Shown one piece after another: positions 24,372 through 33,730 of a stretch of 64,000 nucleotides of DNA. The notes beneath the pieces are model-generated. The model searched no databases. It was given only the letters and a program-made list of their open reading frames with translations, and was not told where the DNA came from. The first letter of the stretch is position 1; the number at the start of each line of letters is the position of its first letter. The position numbers and the translations under genes are program-made. The stretch comes from Acidobacteriota bacterium (GTDB taxonomy: Bacteria > Acidobacteriota > UBA890 > WLXD01): assembly GCA_012103255.1 (NCBI GenBank), contig WLXD01000003.1, positions 141,984 through 205,983 on the forward strand, in the 5' to 3' direction.

Positions 24372-25464
24372 TCACGCGATCTCAGTGTTTTCCGCACTAG
24401 GCTGCAGCCACCGTGATCCGGTCCGCACGAAGTACGTCAACCACATGACGATTCCAACGAACTTGGCGCCGTCTTCGAAGATGAACGGGTTCAGCCCGGG
24501 AATGCTCACGACGTCCAGACCCACGGACGTGATGAAGAATCCGAGGGCGATGGCAAGTAGTTGCCACTCCGTCGCACGGATGATTCGTCGGAACCGGGTC
24601 AGATAGGCCGCTATCGCGATCATGTAGGTGACGATCAGCACTTTCTCGGGAATTCCGAGGCGAGGGAGTTACGCGCTCGTGCCACAGAAAGGTGTCGTCG
24701 AGGGCAAGCACGGTCGTGAACACCGCCGAGGCCACCAAGAACCGCCGCACGGCCGGATTGGCGGTCCAGTTGATGCCCGCCACGAAGAAGCAGATCGCCG
24801 CCGCAGCGGCCCAAAGCAGGAGCCCGAGCTGCGATAGCGCGCCCGTCACGGGCGGCAGGCCAGCCACCTGCGTCACATCCCGAATCAAGACGTCGAACGG
24901 CACGCCCGCGACGAATCGCTGCTCCACAACAAAGCCTATTGGCACGGCGGCGGCAGCGAAGGCAAGAAGCATGACCCGCGCCAGCGGCATGCGGGCCGAC
25001 CGCTGGACGACGTGTTCCGGGCTTGCACCGATCCGGAGGCGTCCGCCCGCGGCTGCGGCGATCAACGCAAGCAGGGCGGCCAGCGCGAGACCCGCCGTCG
25101 TATGCCATACGGCATATTGCGACGTGACGATCACGAAGCCAAAGGTCGCCGCCACCGCCACCGCCAGCGGCAACGCGACAACGCGTGCGGGCACCCGCGC
25201 ATCGGCGCTGGTCCACAAGGCGACACCCAGCACAAGCAGCAACGCCCCTGACACGCGCGCAAATCCGATGCCGGCCCAAACAACCTCGACAGCGGGAGCC
25301 GGTTCAAGCGGCGGAACCGCCTGCCCGCCGATGACCTCGAATGCCGTGGGCCCCGCAAGCGCAACCCACAGCCCGAGCGCCACGGTCAACGCGGCGACGC
25401 TCCGCGCAAAGTACTGCCACATCGGCAGGAGGCGTGAGGAAGAAGCGTGGGTCTTCGGTGACAT
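24372..25464 (-). pseudogene. polytopic membrane protein gene interrupted by a frameshift (or sequencing error) near 24650-24680
   Basis: The 355-aa ORF (24397-25464) loses protein-like character after …LALDDTFLWHE. The hydrophobic continuation (…EKVLIVTYMIAIAAYLTRFRRII…WLTYFVRTGSRW…) lies in another frame (24372-24641). The two frames overlap around 24641-24676. Confidence 0.45.
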
Positions 25465-25580
25465 GCGTCAGGTCCAGGGCTTTGCCTGGCGACGACCTGG
25501 CGACGCCGGGCGCGAGCCCAGCATAGTTGAATGCCCGCCGGACCAACAGGCTCGCGCCGACGGGCTAAGATCGGAGCCGT

Positions 25581-25664
25581 CGCCGGAGTGGTGGAATGGC
25601 AGACACGCGGGATTCAAAATCCCGTGGGCTTTATGCCCGTGTGGGTTCGAGTCCCACCTCCGGT
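25581..25664 (+). tRNA. tRNA-Leu (anticodon CAA), class II with long variable arm
   Basis: Hand-folded cloverleaf: acceptor GCCGGAG/CTCCGGT, D-arm, anticodon stem CGGGA/TCCCG with loop TTCAAAA (anticodon CAA), 17-nt variable stem-loop GGGCTTTATGCCC, T-arm GTGGG-TTCGAGT-CCCAC, discriminator A. Confidence 0.85.
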
Positions 25665-25752
25665 ACTTATGCGATGAGCGGCATCGGAAAACGCGACGCT
25701 AGCGGTTTCTCCCACAGCAAGTTCCGCGCGACTTCGCCGAAGGAGAAACAGG

Positions 25753-26223
25753 ATGCCGAAACCCATCCGCTACTCACTTGTCTCGATGCTCGGTGTCGGC
25801 CTGGTGGCCACGTGGCAGGCATTCAATGTCGGAGTCGAGTCGGGTGCTGAGCAGGCGTTCCAGGAGAACTCAACTTCGGCCGCCGAGCCGGACTTTGTCG
25901 GTCATTGGGAGGGCTCGATCGCAGGGGTAATCACGCTCGTCTTTCACATCACGGAATCGGACGGGACGTACTACTCGACGCTCGATGTTCCGCAGCAGGA
26001 CCTGGCTGGACGGGTCATGGACAGCACCACGATCGATGGGACGAAGCTTCGCATCACGTTCGATCTGATAGGGGGCGTCTTCGCGGGCGAGATGCTGGAT
26101 GACGGCACGATAGCGGGGACCTGGCGCCAAGCGCATGGAGGCGACCCGTTTGCCCTGAATCTCCGGCAGCGGGGTAGCGAGTCGTTGGCGCCCGCCGAGG
26201 CGCCGGGCCGCGTCCCGGGCTAG
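25753..26223 (+). CDS. secreted hypothetical protein
   Basis: 156 aa with an N-terminal hydrophobic signal/anchor. No motif recognised. First gene after the tRNA. Confidence 0.5.
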   Translation: MPKPIRYSLVSMLGVGLVATWQAFNVGVESGAEQAFQENSTSAAEPDFVGHWEGSIAGVITLVFHITESDGTYYSTLDVPQQDLAGRVMDSTTIDGTKLRITFDLIGGVFAGEMLDDGTIAGTWRQAHGGDPFALNLRQRGSESLAPAEAPGRVPG

Positions 26224-26355: not shown

Positions 26356-27264
26356 CTAGCCCACGAACCCGCCCCTGACGGCGCGCACGCCGTAGGCCCA
26401 GAAGCCCTCCAGGTCCGGCGGGAACCTACTGATTTCTCCGGCCCGCTGGCGCGAGCCGTGCGTCTTGTGCGTCTTGTACAGCAAGAACAGACCGAGATTC
26501 TTCATTGTCTGGTCGCGTTCTGTCGCCGCTTCCTTCTCTGCGACGGACTCGAGCACAGCAATCGCGAGATCCGGCGCTTCTCTCATCATCACAAGCGCGG
26601 CACCGTATCTCACTGCATTCTTGATCGACGGGACGTCGTGGTAGCTCGCCCTTAGCTCGTTGAGCTTGGGTTCGATTTGCTCCACCGATCGGGTCCACAT
26701 CGCGGCCCGCTGAGCTGGCGATGACCGGGGCGGCAGTACGTCCGTTTCCGATAGCGCCATCGTTATAGCGACGTGAACGTAGGTTTCAGGTGCCCAGAGG
26801 GTTTCTTCGGCTGAGTCACGGCTATGGCTAACGACCCCGCCGAACAGAAGGGCGATCAGCGCCGTGATGGCAGCAGCCCGCATCGAGGGAAGCGGCTTGT
26901 AGTGCGTCGGCGCGGACGCGGGCGTTGCCTCGGGCGTCGGCGCGTGAGGCGTGAACAGCACGCCACGGCCGTGCAAGGTGCGAAGGAAGACCGGGGCTGC
27001 AGCCGTCTCGCCAAGAGCGCGCCTCAGCAGATGGACGACTTCGCAGATCGACTGGTCGGCGACCGCGGTTGCCGGCCAGCACGCTCCGAGTAGCTCATCC
27101 TTCGTGATCGGGCGGTCCGGGTTCGCTAGCAAATAGCTCAACACGCGGGCGCATCGGGGGTCCAGGTCAACCCGACCATCAGCTCGATGAAGCGACCCCG
27201 TCAGCGCGTCGAACTCCATGTCTCCAACGCGTGATCGTAGAGCCTTGTCCGATCCGTTCTGCAT
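26356..27264 (-). CDS. CadC/ToxR-like membrane-bound transcriptional regulator (OmpR-type winged helix + TM + periplasmic helical/TPR-like domain)
   Basis: The N-terminus …LDPRCARVLSYLLANPDRPITKDELLGACWPATAVADQSICEVVHLLRRALGE… matches the Trans_reg_C winged helix. One TM helix (AAITALIALLFGGVV) is followed by a helical periplasmic region. Confidence 0.65.
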   Translation of the reverse strand: MQNGSDKALRSRVGDMEFDALTGSLHRADGRVDLDPRCARVLSYLLANPDRPITKDELLGACWPATAVADQSICEVVHLLRRALGETAAAPVFLRTLHGRGVLFTPHAPTPEATPASAPTHYKPLPSMRAAAITALIALLFGGVVSHSRDSAEETLWAPETYVHVAITMALSETDVLPPRSSPAQRAAMWTRSVEQIEPKLNELRASYHDVPSIKNAVRYGAALVMMREAPDLAIAVLESVAEKEAATERDQTMKNLGLFLLYKTHKTHGSRQRAGEISRFPPDLEGFWAYGVRAVRGGFVG

Positions 27265-27478
27265 GGCAACGGTTCTATCACACCAAGCGCGGAGCCTGCG
27301 GGAACCACGGGGGAGCCGCCAAAACTAAGAAACCACTAAGGACTTTCTAGCCCCGATCGCGCACGGTCCGTGCCACCAATCCATTACTACAGACGGGGTC
27401 GCGCAGAAGGGGTTCGCGTGCTCGACGGCACGCTCCAGTCCACCCGCCCCGTCAGGCAGCTATGCCGGAGGTTTTGCG

Positions 27479-27733
27479 ATGGCCGAAACGAGAATCGCCG
27501 ACCGAAACGACGACTATACGACCGTGGCAGATAGGGCCAACCGAGTGGGCTGTGACTGCTGTTGCACGGACGCCGTCGCCCGCGTCCTTTGCTGCTGGAT
27601 GCAGACCGATGAAGGCAGCCAGGGGAATCGCGACAACACGGCCGAGTTCGCGAGCCAGTTGATGGCGGCCCTTGGGTGCGATCCGCAAGCAGTATCGAAG
27701 AGTCGTCGCGCTGATGACTGCGACATCGACTAA
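27479..27733 (+). CDS. small acidic Cys-rich hypothetical protein (possible partner/antitoxin of downstream RelA/SpoT-domain gene)
   Basis: 84-aa ORF preceded by GGAGG 6 nt upstream. Its TAA stop lies within the RBS (GGAGG) of the next gene. Contains a CDCCC…CC cluster. The coding call is uncertain. Confidence 0.25.
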   Translation: MAETRIADRNDDYTTVADRANRVGCDCCCTDAVARVLCCWMQTDEGSQGNRDNTAEFASQLMAALGCDPQAVSKSRRADDCDID

Positions 27734-27745
27734 CGGAGGCACAGC

Positions 27746-28708
27746 ATGAGTCTCCCGTACCGGTTTCTGTTTGGCGCTTTCTTCGCAGTCTTGCCGGCGT
27801 CAGTTGGTCTTGGCCAGGAGACCGCGCAGGCACCGCAAACCGCGAGCGTTTCACAGGAGGTGCTCGCGCCGGTGACCGTCGCGCGTCGCCTGTCCTCAGC
27901 CAACACCATCAACTGCAAGCTAGGGGACTACGCGACGGCCGACTTCTTCGCCCTTCCTCCCGACGAGCAAGACCTGTTCCTGACCGAGTTCCGGGCTAAG
28001 TACGCGGCCACGCTGCGCGCGACGCGCGATGCGCTACGCGCCCTACTGCCCCGGCCCGTTTACATGGTGTCATTCCGCCTGAAGACGTCGGTGAGCATCA
28101 AGGAGAAGATCACCCGCAAGGGCTACAGCTGCTTCTCCCAGTTCTCCGACATCGTGGGCACACGAGTGATCGCTCCTGCGTACGCCTCGTTCGGGGCCAT
28201 CCAGCGAACGATCACCGACACCTTCGATGTCGCCAAGGCCGAGAACCTACTCGACGACAAGCCCGGCGGTGGCTATCGCGCCCTGCACTATGACGTGATA
28301 GTGCTGGGGCGCAAGGCCGAGATCCAGGTCATGACGCGCAGGATGGCCGCCTTCACGGAGAGTTCTCATCCACTCGCGTACAAGGGGCCGTACGCGGAGC
28401 CGAATGACCCGTCGAAGGACACTCCGGAAGCCAAGGCTGTCCGCGGGTATCTGAAGAAACTGGGCGATGCGATTCACGAACTGGATAGAGGCAACTCAGC
28501 TACTCTGCCCCCGATCCCCGCGACTCTCCCGGACGACGCCCAGGAGCGGCTCAACAAGACAATGGTTAAGCTTGTCTCGCTGAGTTCCATCGATCCAATC
28601 ACGCCGCTTACGTTCGCGGAGATCTTCGTCAACCCGGCGCTTGCTCTGCTTGAGTTCTACGCGCTAGACGAGTTCCTTCCCATCGCGCTGATCGAGCAGG
28701 AACAATAG
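27746..28708 (+). CDS. RelA/SpoT (RSH) nucleotidyltransferase-domain protein, toxSAS-like, with signal-peptide-like N-terminus
   Basis: …RLKTSVSIKEKITRKGY…DIVGTRVI…GGYRALHYDVIVLGRKAEIQVMTRRMAAFTESSHPLAYKG… matches the RelA_SpoT synthetase core (D-x-G-R-V, GY(R)xLH, EIQ(V/I)xT, YK). There is no HD hydrolase domain. N-terminus MSLPYRFLFGAFFAVLPASVGLGQE. GGAGG RBS 7 nt upstream. Confidence 0.75.
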   Translation: MSLPYRFLFGAFFAVLPASVGLGQETAQAPQTASVSQEVLAPVTVARRLSSANTINCKLGDYATADFFALPPDEQDLFLTEFRAKYAATLRATRDALRALLPRPVYMVSFRLKTSVSIKEKITRKGYSCFSQFSDIVGTRVIAPAYASFGAIQRTITDTFDVAKAENLLDDKPGGGYRALHYDVIVLGRKAEIQVMTRRMAAFTESSHPLAYKGPYAEPNDPSKDTPEAKAVRGYLKKLGDAIHELDRGNSATLPPIPATLPDDAQERLNKTMVKLVSLSSIDPITPLTFAEIFVNPALALLEFYALDEFLPIALIEQEQ

Positions 28709-28854
28709 CCGCAATTGCCAGGTTCCGCGGCGCACATGCAACCTATCTCGCCTGTGCGCGCGGCGAGAGCCCGAAACTTCCACAATCTCCTACACACTTC
28801 CACAAGTTGTGCAGAAAACTCTTTAAATATAGATATCTAAGAGTGCAGGCACAG

Positions 28855-28908
28855 GATTCAAAATCCCGTGGGCGCAAGCCCGTGTGGGTTCGAGTCCCAC
28901 CTCCGGTA
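28855..28908 (+). repeat. direct repeat = truncated 3' portion of tRNA-Leu(CAA) (attR-like), copy 1
   Basis: 54 nt identical to the tRNA from the anticodon loop to the discriminator, except the variable-arm loop (gcaa vs tttat). Confidence 0.85.
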
Positions 28909-29113
28909 CTAATATTTTCGACGACTTACCTCGTTGCCGAACAACGCTTGGACAACCGGAGCCTGGCGCGCCGCCGGATCGGACCCTGGTACGCAGAGGT
29001 CGGATCTCGTAGGGTCGTCTGCGACGCTTGTACGCGGCTTCACTGCTAGCCTGGCCGGTACCCCGTCAGCCCTCCGACAAGGGGCCGGCCGTCGGCGTTC
29101 GGCCGACCTGGAG

Positions 29114-29956
29114 ATGCGAAACATGGCGGACGACACCCCCCCGTCGATCGAGCAGATTCGCGAATGGCTGGCCCACGAGAGCATGTCTGGGTATGGCTTG
29201 ATGCGCCGCTGCACGTGGCCGGGAAGGAAGCCCGCCGTAGAGCTTCTCTACATCATCGACAGCACCGGGGGAGAACAAAGCCGGAAGCACCGAATGTCCC
29301 ACGACCACTATCGCTGGGTCACCCGGATGTTCTGGCGCTCTCGTCGCCTGTACGAGGCAATTCTCTTTCTTCTCGATGCCGCTCAGCCCGAAGAAGCGGC
29401 AATCCTGGCGCGCTCGTTGTTTGAGGACAGCATGCGTCTAATGGAGCTCGCTGAGGACGAAAACAAGCGCGACGCCCGGATCATCTGGTGGATGAACGAC
29501 TCAATTCAGCGAGCGTTCAACCTGCAGAGGGGGGATCCGGCATTTGAAGTCGAGGACAGACTCATACTTTCACGCCACGAGTTGGAGGGGCGGCGGGCGG
29601 GCCTGCAAAGGTACGCTGCGTACCACGGCGTGACCAAGTACGAGAGGTTCAGTTCGCCCAAGGACGCGGCTACCCGGTTTGATCGGAAGATGTCCTATTC
29701 CCTGTACATGTGGGCGCATCAAGCGACGCACGGGAACGACGCCGTTTGGGGAGTCGCAGCCGTGAAGCGGCCGGAAGGCGGCGAACTCCTGAATGCGAAG
29801 ACAGCGGATGTCCTGTGGCTCAAGATGGTGGCCAACTTTGCCATCCAGGCAGTGTTCGATGCCATGATCGCCGCCGCCTCAGTGCTTGGATGGGCAGTGC
29901 CAGAAGAAGCGTTCTCGAAACTCGACGAGTACCAGCAAGCTCGCGACGAGCAATAA
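29114..29956 (+). CDS. hypothetical protein (all-alpha, no recognised domain)
   Basis: 280-aa ORF; alternative ATG at 29123. No motif I can name. Confidence 0.5.
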   Translation: MRNMADDTPPSIEQIREWLAHESMSGYGLMRRCTWPGRKPAVELLYIIDSTGGEQSRKHRMSHDHYRWVTRMFWRSRRLYEAILFLLDAAQPEEAAILARSLFEDSMRLMELAEDENKRDARIIWWMNDSIQRAFNLQRGDPAFEVEDRLILSRHELEGRRAGLQRYAAYHGVTKYERFSSPKDAATRFDRKMSYSLYMWAHQATHGNDAVWGVAAVKRPEGGELLNAKTADVLWLKMVANFAIQAVFDAMIAAASVLGWAVPEEAFSKLDEYQQARDEQ

Positions 29957-30687
29957 CCGGTGCCCCGGCGGCCAGGAGGCGTGCCTGGACATCGCTTCTG
30001 CGAGCGGTCGTCGGGATCTCGGTCTCGTCGTCTAGTCAGCATCGCGCAACGTCTCTTCGAACTGCTGTACTTCCAGCCTTCGGAGCCGGTGCTTCGAGAC
30101 TCGTTGCGCCAACTGCGCCGCTGACCCAACGCCAGCCTCAATCTGGCTCGTTGGTGGCGAGTCGGAAACATAGGGGCGCCGTCGAGCCGTCTGTGCACTT
30201 GCCCTCGTTATCCCGGCGCTCTAGTTGCCGTGCCGTGCCAATCTTGAAGTAGTCGGCGTCGGCCGTGCGGCCGCGCCGGAGCCCAGGACCAGGGGCTGGC
30301 CCCACGGGCCCACCGCCGCATGCTCGACATCGCGAAGGGCTCTTTCGTGTACCGGATAGTGCGGCCGTCCACGCGTAGTGCGTCTTCGGCCTCCGATCCT
30401 TCTTCGTAGCGCGTGATCAAGATGGTATCCGCCCGGTCACCTATCAGCATGAACAGGGCAACTCTTGGGCCCCGCCACACCGCTCGAAGCCTCTCCGGTG
30501 TTCCGGCGGCGTGCGGTGCGCACATGGTGCCTGTAGTGGCCCGCGCAACTCTGGCTGCCATCGTCGGGCCAGCCGGCGGCTGTCCGCTGCCGCTCCGAAG
30601 CTGAACGGCTCGCGGGGTCCCAGACGCTCACCAGGGTGCAGCTCGCTCCCGCTGCCGTCGATCAGGACACTGCGGCCCGCCGGCAGA

Positions 30688-31275
30688 TCAGCGGTGTCCG
30701 TCCGCAGCGCCAGTGCCCGGCGTAGGGAGTACCGGTTCGTCGTCCATGACGTCGTTCTGGTTGAGCAACGGAACAATTAGCACGTCCCCGTTCGTAAAGA
30801 CCTTGGCGTCCTTTCTCGCCAACGTTGCTTTGTAGTGGTAATTGCCTACGCGTTGAACCTCGAAACTCGCACCGTCCTGCGTGCTTTCGTACTCAACGAA
30901 GTCCTTTCCGCCTTGGCTTCTCTTCCATTTGTCCTGCTCAAACTCGATCCATCTGTAGCGCATGATTCGCGCCCGCTGAGGCTCAGGTTTCGGTTCGGGC
31001 GGGTTCTCGAGATACTTGTGGCGCTCTGGCAAATGCACAGCGAATCCATCGACCCAGATACGCGCGTCGTTCACCTCGTACCACTCCGAACCGAGACCGG
31101 CACGAGGGTAGATCTGCAGGCGACTGTTCTGGTAGTCGCCTGCCCGCCAAGAGAAGGCGCGATCATACGGCCGACCCGGACCATTCTCGTCCCACCCCTT
31201 GAGGCTGCCGTCCTCTTTGTGGGTGCCCCACAGAACCACCTCTACGAATCTATGGCAGAACAAAGCCAGGTCCAT
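30688..31275 (-). CDS. hypothetical protein
   Basis: 195-aa ORF, divergent from the TIR gene. Charged and aromatic-rich (…WYEVNDARIWVDGFAVHL…). No recognised domain. Confidence 0.5.
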   Translation of the reverse strand: MDLALFCHRFVEVVLWGTHKEDGSLKGWDENGPGRPYDRAFSWRAGDYQNSRLQIYPRAGLGSEWYEVNDARIWVDGFAVHLPERHKYLENPPEPKPEPQRARIMRYRWIEFEQDKWKRSQGGKDFVEYESTQDGASFEVQRVGNYHYKATLARKDAKVFTNGDVLIVPLLNQNDVMDDEPVLPTPGTGAADGHR

Positions 31276-31544
31276 CTCGTCCCTCCATGGTCGTTTGAGC
31301 GAATGCAGCTAGAACCCGCGCCGGGTTCCCTTTCCGACAACTGCACAGGCGCGCCTATTCAAATTGGTCTCGTTTCGTCGCCAACTGCTCGAGACCGCTG
31401 CGCGTGGGAACGATCGTCGAGGGCTCCCGCTCCCCGCAGGGCATGTAGCGTTGACGTCAAAGTTCCCATATAGTTCCCTCATGGGAGTCGGGATGCGGAT
31501 CGTGGGAAATGGTGAAGTGTAGGAAGTGTTCGCAGGAGGCCGGT

Positions 31545-33137
31545 ATGAGAAGGGATAGGGGCGGGCTTGTGGTTGATCTAGCGGCAGAACTGGAAACCCT
31601 GATGAAGGCCGGAGGGGTGAAGGGCTACGTCAAGGCGAGCGAAGCGCCTATCCTCGGCGTCTGTGCGGAGCACTCTGGCCGCGATCAAGAGCCTCGGCAA
31701 GCGCTGGAGGCGCTCGTGCGATCCGCGATCGCGAGGATCGACGCCGGCCAGGACCGGGAGGCCCTGACTGAACTGTTCCTGGCACCCACGGGCGATCAGT
31801 CGCTGGCCGCACGCGGAGCGAAGGCGGCCGAACACTTTGACATCAGCTACGACGCGCTCCGCCGTCGGAACGATCAAGGCGTCCGGCGAATCGATTCGCT
31901 GTTGGAGCAGCTGGCGGCGAACGTCAACCGCGTCTGTCCGCTGGATGATCTTCTCGGTGACGCAGGGTATCGAGGGGCTTCGCTCGACCCGGGGCCCGGT
32001 GCAGTGAGTCGAGCGCAAGTCTTTCTGAGCTACTCGCACCACGATGATGCGCACGAAGGCGGCCTAGTTTCCTCGCTTCGAGACGCCCTGATCCGGGAGT
32101 TCCGTTTTCAGACCGGCCAGGACCTTCGCGTGCTCCATGACAAATCCGGGATTGAGTTCGGCGAGGACTGGCGGCGGAAGATCGAGGATTTGCTAAGCCA
32201 GACCAGCTTCCTACTCGTGATCCTTACGCCATCGTTTCTGACGAGCGAGCAGTGCCGGGCCGAGTTGGCGAGGTTTCTGCAGCATGAGCGGGCACGAGAC
32301 CGAGATGACCTCGTATTGCCGATCTACTACGCCCCTGTGGATGAGGACGCGGAGGACCACCTCGTAGCGGCATTGCTTGCGCGCCAGTACGTGGACTGGC
32401 GAGGGTTGCGGTTCCTGGACTTTGGTTCTCCCGAGATCAGGATGGCAGTTGCCAAGCTGGCGACGTCTGTCGCCGCTGCACTTGGACGCCGACCCGAGCC
32501 GGTCGAGACTCCGACAGACGACGTTTCCCCGACAGAACTCGGCACGGTTGAGCACTTCGCGAAGATGCAACTCGCGCTTCCTCGGGTCATCCGCGGCATC
32601 GCGACATTCACGAGTGAGCAAGAGGGCGTTGGGAACGAGTTTCGGCAGACTACGGAGCAGCTGAACAGGTTGAACCAGAGCGGCCAGGGAGCTGCTTCGC
32701 AGCTGTTCGTTGCGACTCAGCTGCGGTCGAGGCTGGAGCCCTACGCAGACCGGATGGAGGGGATCTCAGCCGGCGTCCGTGAGGACCTTGAGCTGATCAA
32801 AGGCGGCATCCACGCGATCGCGGCTGAACTTCCAGACTCTCAGGAGGCGGGGCTCGAGGAGACGACGCTCGGTATGCTCGACGCTATCCGCGAGTCGCTA
32901 GGTGCGATGCAGGATGCCGAGGACAGCGTCGAGGAGTTCGCCGACGTGGCCACAGGGCTAGGCCAGAAAACCTCGACGCTGAGGCCTGTGCTGAATCGAA
33001 TCGTGGCGTCCGCTCGCTTCGTCCGCACTTGCAAGGAGCGGTTCGCGCAATGGCTTGGCATTCTTGAACAAGCCCTGGACGACTGGCGGAGAAAGGCTGC
33101 GTCCGTTCCGCCGCCCGAGGACGAATCCCAGCGGTAG
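31545..33137 (+). CDS. TIR-domain protein with N-terminal helical (HTH-like) region and long C-terminal coiled-coil/helical domain
   Basis: …AQVFLSYSHHDDAH…GQDLRVLHDKSGIEFGEDWRRKIEDLLSQTSFLLVILTPSFLTSEQCRAELARFL…LVLPIYYAPVD… is the canonical TIR pattern, including the Glu in the …SEQCRAEL… block. AGGAGG RBS 5 nt upstream of ATG 31545; an in-frame upstream ATG exists at 31509. Confidence 0.8.
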   Translation: MRRDRGGLVVDLAAELETLMKAGGVKGYVKASEAPILGVCAEHSGRDQEPRQALEALVRSAIARIDAGQDREALTELFLAPTGDQSLAARGAKAAEHFDISYDALRRRNDQGVRRIDSLLEQLAANVNRVCPLDDLLGDAGYRGASLDPGPGAVSRAQVFLSYSHHDDAHEGGLVSSLRDALIREFRFQTGQDLRVLHDKSGIEFGEDWRRKIEDLLSQTSFLLVILTPSFLTSEQCRAELARFLQHERARDRDDLVLPIYYAPVDEDAEDHLVAALLARQYVDWRGLRFLDFGSPEIRMAVAKLATSVAAALGRRPEPVETPTDDVSPTELGTVEHFAKMQLALPRVIRGIATFTSEQEGVGNEFRQTTEQLNRLNQSGQGAASQLFVATQLRSRLEPYADRMEGISAGVREDLELIKGGIHAIAAELPDSQEAGLEETTLGMLDAIRESLGAMQDAEDSVEEFADVATGLGQKTSTLRPVLNRIVASARFVRTCKERFAQWLGILEQALDDWRRKAASVPPPEDESQR

Positions 33138-33598
33138 GCACGAGGGCCCGGGCGCGCTCCTGGCCAGCCCCGCGGATCACAGGTGCTTGAGACCCACGGT
33201 CTCAACAGTATTCCCCCCAATCGTCGGCCAAGATGTTGCTCGATTCCTGAACCAGGAATCGAATGGCGCCGGGGGCGCCGCAACACCTCGGCCCGACTCC
33301 GTGGTGATTGGTGGAGCCTCAGCGAAATCCCGCAGCCGTCTCTCCATCTCGGCAGGACGGAATTGACACGGAGTCGGGGTTGGTGCCCGACGATTGGGGG
33401 GAATCACAAACCTAAGGAACGCAACGACTTAGGTTTGTTCTTGAGCTTCCGGTAGGTATTCGTTTCCTGAAACGAATAGGCAGGTGGAGATCTCGACCGT
33501 GCAGCCGGCGAGAACCCGAAACTTCCACAATCTCTTGCGCACTTTCGCAGTGCGGAGATTTTTCTTCTTTATTTATAAGTATTTAGATCAGGCATCAT

Positions 33599-33655
33599 CG
33601 GATTCAAAATCCCGTGGGCTTTATGCCCGTGTGGGTTCGAGTCCCACCTCCGGTA
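33599..33655 (+). repeat. direct repeat = truncated 3' portion of tRNA-Leu(CAA) (attR-like), copy 2
   Basis: 57 nt identical to the tRNA 3' part (cggattcaaaatccc…cctccggta), including the variable loop. Confidence 0.85.
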
Positions 33656-33730
33656 TTTTGGAGTCGAAGCGTCGCAAGGCGGTACCAGGGGACGACGGAG
33701 GGCAACTCGGTGTCGTGGGGAATCAGCTTT

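What the first reader, a model, noticed from the sequence alone, without database searches (positions are those of the whole stretch)
27468..28708. Small-alarmone-synthetase/toxSAS-like RelA/SpoT domain protein with a signal-peptide-like N-terminus, preceded by a tightly coupled small Cys-rich ORF
The 320-aa product has a clear RelA_SpoT nucleotidyltransferase core (DIVGTRVI … GGYRALHYDV … EIQVMTRRMA … YKG) and no HD hydrolase domain. This is the architecture of small alarmone synthetases and of toxic toxSAS enzymes (FaRel, CapRel, Tas1-type (p)ppApp/(p)ppGpp or tRNA-pyrophosphorylating toxins). Its N-terminus (MSLPYRFLFGAFFAVLPASVGLGQETAQAP) looks like a Sec signal peptide or membrane anchor, which is unusual for RSH enzymes. 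An 84-aa acidic Cys-rich ORF (27479-27733) has its own GGAGG RBS. Its TAA stop lies within the GGAGG RBS of the RSH gene, the kind of tight coupling seen in toxin-antitoxin and toxin-immunity pairs. The pair lies inside a tRNA-flanked islet next to a CadC-like regulator.
Basis: partly seen in the sequence, partly recalled or inferred. Interest (0 to 1): 0.75.

Follow-up and report, generated by a model that had tools for sequence, protein, structure and literature searches.

The report
Sec-exported RelQ-like alarmone synthetase
This gene encodes a small (p)ppGpp-synthetase-type enzyme with an export signal, from a rare lineage not in the published set of exported alarmone synthetases (first described in 2025), and the upstream small ORF proposed as its antitoxin has no support outside this genome.

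Summary

A search of 1.84 billion representative proteins places it in a rare subfamily of about 15 clusters. Catalytic residues are invariant. Every member with a complete N-terminus has a hydrophobic export signal or lipobox. A cysteine pair (Cys57/Cys129) co-occurs across members, and many share a C-terminal D[FY][FY]xLDEF motif.

This matches "exported alarmone synthetases" (Ahmad et al., mBio 2025): Sec-exported small alarmone synthetases, toxic if kept in the cytoplasm, with no immunity gene. However, this subfamily is RelQ-like. It is absent from that paper's 1,369 sequences and is not detectably related to Tas1/SaEAS, so it is probably an independent lineage.

The toxin-antitoxin reading is not supported. 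The 84-aa Cys-rich ORF is an orphan, is absent beside homologues in about 12 other gene contexts, and has an equivocal codon score.

The genes sit in a 3.2-kb integrase-less islet behind tRNA-Leu(CAA), bounded by a repeat of the tRNA 3' half, with a divergent ToxR/CadC-like regulator. Export, activity and product are untested.

The parts
25582..25666 (+). tRNA-Leu(CAA), the integration target. Its 3' half (25610-25668) is copy 1 of the direct repeat.
   Evidence: ARAGORN; Rfam tRNA, 56.4 bits; repeat family D1.
25753..26223 (+). 156-aa islet cargo protein with a signal-peptide-like N-terminus. No known family.
   Evidence: ORF list. No Pfam, NCBIfam or PADLOC hit. Codon score 0.226, gene-like. 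Not found beside RSH homologues.
26356..27264 (-). ToxR/CadC-like one-component regulator, divergent from the RSH operon. It has an N-terminal winged-helix domain, one hydrophobic segment (AAAITALIALLFGGVV) and a C-terminal domain of about 155 aa.
   Evidence: Pfam Trans_reg_C, E 2.6e-10, residues 31-101. Weak NCBIfam hits to HilA and CadC. Sequence read directly.
27265..27478 (.). 214-bp divergent intergenic region and presumed promoter region. No riboswitch or stable structure.
   Evidence: No relevant Rfam hit. Fold z-score -0.8. No sigma-70-like site on the + strand.
27479..27733 (+). 84-aa acidic ORF with 8 Cys and a GGAGG RBS at 27467-27471. It is an orphan, and whether it is a gene is unresolved.
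   Evidence: Sequence. GC3 0.73. Codon score 0.035: below 97% of true in-frame windows and above 93% of off-frame windows. Only a self-hit. Absent from homologous loci. AF2 pLDDT 53.
27746..28708 (+). 320-aa exported SAS-type RelA/SpoT-homologue gene (NCBI locus tag GKS06_11395).
27746..27814 (+). Residues 1-23: export signal with an n-region (Arg6) and h-region (FLFGAFFAVLPASVGLG). A possible cleavage site is GLG|Q.
   Evidence: Hydrophobicity scan. Equivalent signals in every subfamily member with a complete N-terminus. AF2 pLDDT <50.
27908..28585 (+). Residues 55-280: SYNTH (alarmone-synthetase) core. It contains the invariant residues R111, K113, S117, E120, K121, D135, G138, Y177, R178, H181, E192, Q194, T197, R199, K213 and G214, and the Cys57/Cys129 pair (codons 27914-27916 and 28130-28132).
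28655..28675 (+). Residues 304-310 (FYALDEF): a conserved C-terminal D[FY][FY]xLDEF motif in a disordered tail. Function unknown.
   Evidence: Alignment A2. C-termini of homologues. pLDDT <50.
28745..28852 (+). Right arm of the islet, about 80% identical to the right arm of the next islet (33490-33599).
   Evidence: Repeat family D2; alignment A3.
28853..28911 (+). Copy 2 of the tRNA-Leu 3' half, the attR-like end of the islet. Its variable loop is GCAA instead of TTTAT.

Best explanation
The 320-aa product is a catalytically competent small alarmone synthetase (an ATP-dependent 3'-pyrophosphokinase of the RelQ/RelP structural type). An N-terminal Sec-type signal directs it out of the cytoplasm, which makes it an 'exported alarmone synthetase' from a rare, previously undescribed lineage.

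Shown:
- The SYNTH fold.
- A complete set of invariant catalytic residues.
- No hydrolase domain.
- A hydrophobic N-terminal signal in every subfamily member with a complete N-terminus.
- Positive charge before the hydrophobic segment, which predicts that the domain faces outward.
- A co-occurring Cys pair.

Inferred:
- The protein crosses the inner membrane unfolded through Sec. This keeps a potentially toxic nucleotide-consuming enzyme inactive in the producer, as shown experimentally for SaEAS and VpEAS/RelV.
- Cys57-Cys129 form a disulfide in the oxidising periplasm, so the enzyme folds stably only after export.
- Outside the cytoplasm it transfers pyrophosphate from ATP to a purine nucleotide. 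My guess at the product is (p)ppGpp about 45%, (p)ppApp or both about 30%, and tRNA or other about 25%. It would do so in the periplasm or milieu, or after entering another cell.
- Transcription is probably controlled by the divergent membrane-anchored ToxR/CadC-like regulator.

The upstream 84-aa ORF is not a conserved partner. It is either a lineage-specific small gene or a non-coding leader. The whole 3.2-kb cassette is cargo of an integrase-less islet inserted at tRNA-Leu(CAA).
For: - Domain: Pfam RelA_SpoT, E 4e-12, with no other domain.
- Sequence profile against PDB: RelQ E 2.6e-20 and RelP about 1e-16, aligned along the whole RelQ chain.
- Subfamily: HMMER against 1.84 billion representatives gives only 13 hits at E<1e-30, followed by a score gap from 113 to 94 bits.
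- Invariant catalytic residues in the 14-sequence alignment.
- N-terminal hydrophobic signal in all 15 subfamily sequences whose N-terminus is present (one further member is truncated), against 5 of 135 next-tier relatives. Several members have lipoboxes (LVSC, LLAC, FAGC).
- Cys57 and Cys129 are the only cysteines in the window protein. Across 14 sequences they are both present in 11, both absent in 2 and single in 1.
- Homologues are stand-alone genes in variable contexts with no small partner. This is the same situation the literature reports for signal-peptide EAS, where removing the signal peptide is toxic (PMC12691689).
Against: - No SignalP or TMHMM was available. For the window protein the best AxA-like site (AQA|P) has Pro at +1 and the alternative (GLG|Q) is weak, so the segment could be an uncleaved anchor.
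- Enzyme activity, product and toxicity are untested.
- The Arg of the canonical EIQIRT motif is Met196 here and is variable across the subfamily.
- ATP and GTP are scarce outside the cytoplasm, so the physiological substrate source is unknown, as it is for the published EAS.
- Model coordinates could not be inspected, so the Cys-Cys distance was not measured.
- The 84-aa ORF has a strong RBS and is the best of six frames, which is not explained if it is non-coding.
Confidence: 0.6

Rival explanations
1. Toxin-antitoxin or toxin-immunity pair. The RSH is a toxSAS, and the translationally coupled 84-aa Cys-rich cytoplasmic protein neutralises any enzyme that folds before export or re-enters the cell.
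For: - Both ORFs have a GGAGG RBS and are 12 nt apart.
- The ORF's frame has the best codon score of the six frames and a gene-like GC3.
- The nearest non-exported relatives of the RSH domain are phage MuF, portal and polyvalent effector fusions.
- Neighbouring islet 2 carries defence-like TIR cargo.
Against: - The ORF is an orphan in 5.8 billion clusters.
- It has no match in 24 loci with RSH homologues.
- About 12 distinct homologue contexts lack any small upstream partner.
- Its codon score falls below 97% of real in-frame windows.
- AF2 is not confident.
- Published signal-peptide EAS need no immunity gene.
- A classical toxSAS is cytoplasmic, whereas this protein carries an export signal.
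Confidence: 0.12
2. Membrane-tethered periplasmic signalling enzyme. The N-terminal segment is an uncleaved anchor or a lipoprotein signal. The enzyme would make alarmones in the periplasm as a local signal read by solute-binding-protein-coupled sensors, and would not act as a toxin.
For: - Lipobox-like signals in several members.
- Weak SPase I sites in the window protein.
- Homologues lie beside periplasmic binding-protein genes: ABC_sub_bind in L004, L005 and L031, and SBP_bac_3 overlapping the RSH gene by 16 nt in the P0008 locus.
- Homologues also lie beside sensors: a dCache-HAMP-GAF histidine kinase, and a response regulator plus cyclase.
- In the window the neighbour is a membrane sensor-regulator.
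Against: - Binding-protein genes are very abundant in those genomes, so adjacency may be chance.
- The association is seen in only about 4 of 12 contexts.
- No periplasmic source of ATP is known.
- No alarmone receptor is known among these families.
Confidence: 0.15
3. Ordinary cytoplasmic housekeeping SAS (RelQ/RelP-like). The hydrophobic N-terminus would be a mis-called start or have no function.
For: - The best solved relatives are RelQ and RelP.
- There is a weak NCBIfam hit to YjbM.
- An in-frame GTG at 27872 (Val43) lies 11 nt after an AGGAGG and could give a signal-less product.
Against: - The NCBIfam YjbM score is 22 bits against a cut-off of 320.
- The signal is conserved in sequences only 26-40% identical.
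- ATG 27746 has a canonical RBS.
- The gene is on a mobile islet and in variable contexts elsewhere.
- The conserved Cys pair fits an oxidising compartment.
Confidence: 0.05
4. Exported tRNA-modifying toxin, a CapRel/FaRel2-type pyrophosphokinase of tRNA CCA ends, delivered to other cells.
For: - The core pI is 9.1.
- PADLOC PDC-S33 hit, E 2.6e-10.
Against: - The sequence profile favours RelQ (E 2.6e-20) over CapRel (3e-8) and FaRel2 (5e-6).
- Core pI across the subfamily ranges from 5.0 to 9.6, so a basic surface is not conserved.
- The PADLOC match covers only the catalytic core, profile positions 36-145 of 349.
- No delivery domain is present.
Confidence: 0.08

Closest known systems
Exported alarmone synthetases with Sec signal peptides: SaEAS (Streptomyces albidoflavus, PDB 8VX3) and VpEAS/RelV (Vibrio). 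Ahmad et al., mBio 2025, PMC12691689.
   Different: - Not a sequence relative of those clusters. The profile does not find 8VX3 or Tas1 in PDB at E<=10.
- hhalign gives E 0.14 to Tas1 and only 5e-6 (22% identity over 85 columns) to a Vibrio RelV-type domain.
- Subfamily motifs are absent from the paper's 1,369-sequence set.
- The hosts are uncultured diderms: Acidobacteria, Deltaproteobacteria, Binatia and Syntrophobacteraceae MAGs.
- This subfamily has a conserved Cys pair and a C-terminal D[FY][FY]xLDEF motif, neither of which that paper mentions.
- In this genome the gene has a possible upstream small ORF.
RelQ/SasB (YjbM) and RelP/SasA (YwaC), the cytoplasmic (p)ppGpp-synthesising SAS of Firmicutes.
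   Different: - About 22% identity.
- NCBIfam YjbM score of 22 bits against a cut-off of 320.
- Signal peptide plus a linker of about 30 residues.
- An extra C-terminal tail of 40 residues.
- Arg of EIQIRT is not conserved.
- Located on a mobile islet.
toxSAS toxin-antitoxin modules (FaRel, FaRel2, PhRel, PhRel2, CapRel). Jimmy et al., PNAS 2020, PMC7229694.
   Same: A SAS-type domain that is probably toxic if active in the cytoplasm. CapRel is a strong structural match. In this genome there is a tightly spaced upstream ORF.
   Different: toxSAS are defined by conserved bicistronic or tricistronic architecture, and no such conservation is seen here. toxSAS are cytoplasmic, whereas this protein has an export signal. 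There is no pseudo-ZFD, Panacea or SAH partner.
RelA_SpoT domains at the C-termini of phage MuF or portal fusions and 'polyvalent proteins' (Iyer et al. 2017, PMC5512222; MuF Apk toxins, PMC12226406).
   Same: These are the next-best sequence relatives after the subfamily, at about 65-94 bits. They are also effectors that act outside the producing cytoplasm.
   Different: Those are delivered as parts of large multidomain proteins through virions or conjugation, and 130 of 135 lack a signal-like N-terminus. Here the domain stands alone behind a Sec signal.

Membership tests
RSH superfamily, small alarmone synthetase class (SYNTH domain only) | RelA_SpoT (PF04607) domain above the gathering threshold | tested here: met
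   46.8 bits against a cut-off of 27, E 4e-12.
RSH superfamily, small alarmone synthetase class (SYNTH domain only) | Catalytic motifs RxKxxxSxxEK, DxxGxR, GYRxxH, ExQxxT and HxxxYKG are present | tested here: met
   R111, K113, S117, E120, K121, D135, G138, Y177, R178, H181, E192, Q194, T197, K213 and G214 are invariant in 14 sequences and align to RelQ. The Arg of EIQIRT is Met196.
RSH superfamily, small alarmone synthetase class (SYNTH domain only) | SYNTH fold, with no HD hydrolase or TGS/ACT domains | tested here: met
RSH superfamily, small alarmone synthetase class (SYNTH domain only) | Pyrophosphate transfer from ATP to a nucleotide 3'-OH | not testable with these tools
   Needs an enzyme assay.
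Exported alarmone synthetases (EAS, Ahmad et al. 2025) | N-terminal Sec signal peptide or another export domain | tested here: met
   A positively charged n-region and a hydrophobic h-region occur in the window protein and in every subfamily member with a complete N-terminus. This was judged by a hydrophobicity heuristic, not SignalP, and cleavage was not assessed.
Exported alarmone synthetases (EAS, Ahmad et al. 2025) | Isolated gene without a cognate immunity gene (signal-peptide class) | tested here: inconclusive
   Met for homologues in about 12 contexts. In the window an orphan 84-aa ORF lies 12 nt upstream.
Exported alarmone synthetases (EAS, Ahmad et al. 2025) | Sequence membership in the published signal-peptide clusters A (SaEAS) or B (RelV/VpEAS) | tested here: not met
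   No PDB profile hit to 8VX3 or 6OX6 at E<=10. hhalign gives E 0.14 to Tas1 and 5e-6 to a RelV-type domain. Subfamily motifs are absent from File S3b.
Exported alarmone synthetases (EAS, Ahmad et al. 2025) | Actual export, and toxicity of the signal-less form | not testable with these tools
   Needs localisation and expression experiments.
toxSAS toxin-antitoxin modules | Conserved bi- or tricistronic arrangement with an antitoxin gene | tested here: not met
   The 84-aa ORF is an orphan, is absent from 24 homologous loci, and no alternative conserved small partner was found.
toxSAS toxin-antitoxin modules | Toxicity neutralised by the neighbouring gene product | not testable with these tools
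   Needs co-expression assays.
RelQ/RelP housekeeping SAS | Meets the NCBIfam equivalog (GTPPhKinYjbM) cut-off | tested here: not met
   22.1 bits against a cut-off of 320.
RelQ/RelP housekeeping SAS | Cytoplasmic protein without a signal sequence | tested here: not met
   Conserved N-terminal hydrophobic signal.
CapRel-type fused toxSAS / PADLOC PDC-S33 | Full-length match that includes the C-terminal regulatory (pseudo-ZFD) domain | tested here: not met
   The PADLOC match covers only profile positions 36-145 of 349. The C-terminal tail is disordered in AF2.
tRNA-gene-integrated genomic island | Insertion at the 3' end of a tRNA gene, bounded by a direct repeat of that end | tested here: met
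   tRNA-Leu(CAA) at 25582-25666, with repeats at 28853-28911 and 33600-33658.
tRNA-gene-integrated genomic island | Encodes its own integrase | tested here: not met
   No integrase among the ORFs of either islet.

The most novel reading that the evidence does not exclude
The subfamily is an independently evolved, disulfide-stabilised RelQ-like alarmone synthetase that works in the periplasm or outside the cell as a signal generator, not as a toxin. Its product would be read by the solute-binding-protein-coupled kinases and cyclases encoded next to it in Deltaproteobacteria and Binatia. In this Acidobacterium the same role would fall to the ToxR-like regulator, with the 84-aa Cys-rich protein as a producer-side safety or immunity factor. 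This would amount to an extracytoplasmic alarmone signalling circuit carried on a mobilisable islet.
Probability: 0.1. Interest if true: 0.8.

Novelty: new variant of a known kind. Interest (0 to 1): 0.45.

Why it matters
Exported alarmone synthetases were recognised only in 2025, and their biological role is still open: interbacterial toxin or extracellular signal.

- A third signal-peptide lineage that derives from the RelQ/RelP side of the family, not the Apk1/Tas1 side, would show that export of (p)ppGpp-type synthetases evolved more than once and extends to uncultured soil and sediment diderms.
- Its conserved cysteine pair suggests a simple safety mechanism, folding only after export. 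This could be tested and might generalise.
- The recurrent neighbourhood of periplasmic binding proteins and sensors gives a concrete lead for finding receptors of extracellular alarmones.
- For annotation, the lesson is that a tight upstream ORF next to an RSH gene is not enough to call a toxSAS toxin-antitoxin pair.

Tried and rejected
- Toxin-antitoxin pair: rejected as the main reading. The small ORF gave only a self-hit in the homologue search and nothing in a tblastn against 24 homologous loci. An upstream-ORF survey found no partner, the codon-usage test was equivocal, and single-sequence AF2 was uninformative (pLDDT 53).
- Riboswitch or leader RNA upstream of the RSH gene: Rfam at E<=1 found only the tRNA and one chance hit. 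The 216-nt intergenic RNA folds no better than shuffled sequence (z -0.8).
- Intrinsic terminator or sigma-70 promoter scan: nothing useful on the + strand.
- Membership in the published EAS clusters: rejected.
- Phage origin: only marginal PHROG hits, E about 6e-4.
- Excised circular form of the islet: the 3,243-bp Logan contig seen in 7 samples starts and ends inside the 33-nt exact repeat. A k-mer assembly break explains it, so it is not evidence for a circle.
- Co-transfer of islet genes: the 156-aa, CadC-like, DUF5677, 195-aa and TIR proteins have no matches in loci carrying RSH homologues.
- DNA of the closest homologue's contig (P0002) could not be fetched. By analogy with L004, its upstream 112-aa gene is probably the 3' end of an ABC_sub_bind gene. 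This is an inference.
DSSP shows isolated bridges at residues 63 and 129, which is only suggestive.
Full report
**1. What is there**

The window is identical to contig WLWH01000003.1 of an Acidobacteria MAG, GCA_012263325.1.

- ORF 27746-28708 (+) encodes 320 aa. It has a GGAGG 6 nt upstream of its ATG.
- Twelve nucleotides upstream ends an 84-aa ORF (27479-27733). This ORF has its own GGAGG 7 nt before its ATG and contains 8 cysteines. Its TAA stop lies 1 nt before the second GGAGG, not inside it.
- A ToxR/CadC-like regulator is transcribed divergently (26356-27264). It has a Trans_reg_C domain (E 2.6e-10), one hydrophobic segment and a C-terminal domain of about 155 aa.
- A 156-aa protein with a signal-like N-terminus lies at 25753-26223.

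**2. The enzyme**

- Pfam finds only RelA_SpoT (E 4e-12, residues 111-213). There is no HD hydrolase domain.
- An AlphaFold2 model built on a 14-sequence family alignment has pLDDT >90 for residues 55-280. Residues 1-53 and 282-320 are disordered.
- A family profile searched against PDB sequences gives RelQ 2.6e-20, RelP about 1e-16, RelA 1e-8, CapRel 3e-8 and FaRel2 5e-6. It does not find Tas1 or SaEAS at E<=10.
- The residues that bind ATP and Mg and stack the acceptor base in RelQ-type enzymes are invariant in the family: R111, K113, S117, E120, K121, D135, G138, Y177, R178, H181, E192, Q194, T197, K213 and G214. Their roles come from established knowledge of RelQ/RelP structures.
- The protein therefore looks catalytically competent. 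The one deviation is Met196 in place of the Arg of EIQIRT, and this position varies across the family.

**3. A rare subfamily defined by export**

- HMMER against 1.84 billion representative proteins finds 4,432 RSH relatives. Only 13 score E<1e-30, and the score then falls from 113 to 94 bits.
- The word-based search of 5.8 billion clusters found only the protein itself and one relative at 39% identity.
- All 15 subfamily sequences whose N-terminus is present have one to several K/R residues followed by a hydrophobic stretch of 12 or more residues. This stretch ends 15-30 residues before the folded domain. The one remaining member (P0003) is N-terminally truncated.
- Examples include MSRKLLFLALCAMLFAHCLSAQA|QT. 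Several members have lipoboxes (LVSC, LLAC, FAGC).
- The same crude test flags only 5 of the 135 next-best relatives.
- Charge distribution puts the catalytic domain on the outer side of the membrane. This follows from the positive-inside rule and is an inference.
- Cys57 (CxxGD) and Cys129 (YxCFS) are the only cysteines in the window protein. Across 14 sequences both are present in 11, both absent in 2, and one alone in 1. This pattern fits a disulfide formed after export.
- Many members also share a C-terminal D[FY][FY]xLDEF motif. In the window protein it is FYALDEF, residues 304-310. Its function is unknown.

**4. Comparison with what is known**

Ahmad et al. (mBio 2025, PMC12691689) defined exported alarmone synthetases.
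- Their examples are Sec-signal SAS from Streptomyces (SaEAS) and Vibrio (VpEAS/RelV).
- These enzymes make (p)ppGpp and/or (p)ppApp and are toxic in E. coli when the signal peptide is removed.
- They are encoded at isolated loci without immunity genes.

The present protein works like these by every feature I could test. It is not a member of their clusters:
- The diagnostic motifs of this subfamily do not occur in their 1,369-sequence file.
- hhalign gives E 0.14 against Tas1/Apk1 and only 5e-6 (22% identity over 85 columns) against a Vibrio RelV-type domain.

It is also not a RelQ/RelP orthologue, scoring 22 bits on the NCBIfam YjbM model against a cut-off of 320.

Beyond the subfamily, the nearest sequence relatives include short phage-like RSH proteins. 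They also include C-terminal RSH domains of MuF, portal, InPase, NUDIX, DRAT and RadC fusion proteins. These are the 'polyvalent' and MuF effector classes (PMC5512222, PMC12226406), so the lineage sits among delivered effectors.

**5. The small ORF**

For a real gene:
- It has a strong RBS.
- Its GC3 is 0.73, with GC1 > GC2.
- It has the best codon score of the six frames.
- Gene callers predict it.

Against a real gene:
- The score of 0.035 per codon is below 97% of true in-frame windows of this genome, is exceeded by 7% of off-frame windows, and nearly ties with one antisense frame.
- There is no homologue other than itself.
- tblastn finds no match in 24 loci carrying RSH homologues.
- AF2 gives pLDDT 53.

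Across about 12 distinct homologue contexts, no small partner is conserved. The upstream gene is one of the following:
- an ABC_sub_bind binding protein (L004, the L005 group, L031);
- an SBP_bac_3 protein overlapping the RSH gene by 16 nt (P0008 locus);
- a BglII-like restriction-modification pair (L020);
- an IS3-like transposase (L022, judged from the sequence);
- an unrelated 143-aa protein (L007);
- or nothing.

The conserved-operon criterion that defines toxSAS TA modules (PMC7229694) is therefore not met.

**6. Genomic setting**

- tRNA-Leu(CAA) at 25582-25666 is followed by two tandem islets.
- Each islet ends in a copy of about 59 bp of the tRNA 3' half (28853-28911 and 33600-33658). 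Each copy is preceded by a shared right arm of about 110 bp at about 80% identity.
- Neither islet encodes an integrase.
- Islet 1 (3.2 kb) carries the 156-aa protein, the regulator, the small ORF and the RSH gene.
- Islet 2 carries a DUF5677 protein, an orphan, and a TIR-domain protein with ThsB-like and PDC-S66 matches.
- GC content is slightly below the flanks, 0.60-0.63 against about 0.65.
- None of the other islet genes travels with RSH homologues elsewhere.

**7. Most likely mechanism**

Shown: a SAS fold, an intact active site, a conserved export signal, a co-occurring Cys pair and a mobile context.

Inferred:
- Sec exports the unfolded protein, which keeps it inactive in the producer.
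- A disulfide stabilises it in the periplasm.
- It transfers pyrophosphate from ATP to a purine nucleotide outside the cytoplasm, or in a recipient cell.
- The divergent ToxR-like regulator controls expression.

The product cannot be called from sequence. RelQ/RelP similarity favours (p)ppGpp. Kinship with effector domains and the promiscuity of SaEAS leave (p)ppApp open. tRNA modification is less likely, because a basic surface is not conserved (core pI 5.0-9.6).

**8. Verdict**

The feature belongs to a kind described in 2025, but it represents an apparently independent, undescribed lineage with its own hallmarks. Interest is moderate (0.45).

Limits: no dedicated signal-peptide predictor was available, I had no access to model coordinates, there are no close homologues (more than 40% identity) for comparative analysis of the operon, and there are no experimental data.

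Noticed in passing
window 28745-28911 and 33490-33658: Two tandem integrase-less islets lie behind tRNA-Leu(CAA). They share a conserved right arm of about 110 bp (about 80% identity) followed by a copy of the tRNA 3' half. Copy 2 has a different variable loop (GCAA instead of TTTAT). This suggests related elements that are mobilised in trans and have accreted at one att site.
   Followed up: partly
window 28934-33137: Islet 2 carries a DUF5677 protein (28934-29956), a 195-aa orphan (30688-31275, minus strand) and a 542-aa TIR_2 protein (31509-33137). The TIR protein matches PADLOC PDC-S66 (E 1e-10) and ThsB-like profiles, so this is probably anti-phage defence cargo.
   Followed up: partly
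window 28655-28675 (residues 304-310) and the C-termini of P0002, P0003, P0007, P0008, P0009, L005, L009, L024: A conserved D[FY][FY]xLDEF motif sits near the C-terminus of the exported RSH subfamily, in a tail that AF2 leaves disordered. It could be a sorting, partner-binding or autoinhibitory peptide.
   Followed up: no
L004 1219-4833; L005 680-4851; L031 1-999; P0008 locus (JGI 3300042731): RSH homologues repeatedly lie next to periplasmic solute-binding protein genes (ABC_sub_bind; SBP_bac_3 overlapping by 16 nt) and sensory proteins (a dCache-HAMP-GAF histidine kinase; a response regulator plus adenylate/guanylate cyclase). This is a possible lead to sensing of extracytoplasmic alarmones, or it may be chance in genomes rich in these genes.
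   Followed up: partly
window 27855-27874: An in-frame GTG (Val43, 27872-27874) lies 11 nt after an AGGAGG. An internal start here would give a signal-less, cytoplasmic isoform containing the whole catalytic domain. This is probably chance and was not tested.
   Followed up: no
L002 (Logan SRR10090327 contig, 3243 bp, seen in 7 samples): Islet 1 assembles as its own contig, which starts and ends inside the 33-nt exact repeat. An assembly break at the repeat explains this, and it does not demonstrate an excised circle.
   Followed up: yes
window 25753-26223: The 156-aa islet protein has a signal-like N-terminus and no family match. With the regulator and the RSH, three of the four islet products appear to be directed to the envelope.
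   Followed up: no
window 24397-25464 (-) versus 24692-25702 (+): Long overlapping ORFs lie on both strands just upstream of the tRNA, and the + strand ORF runs into the tRNA gene. NCBI calls a 328-aa + strand gene there (L001 6971-7957). The true coding strand was not checked.
   Followed up: no
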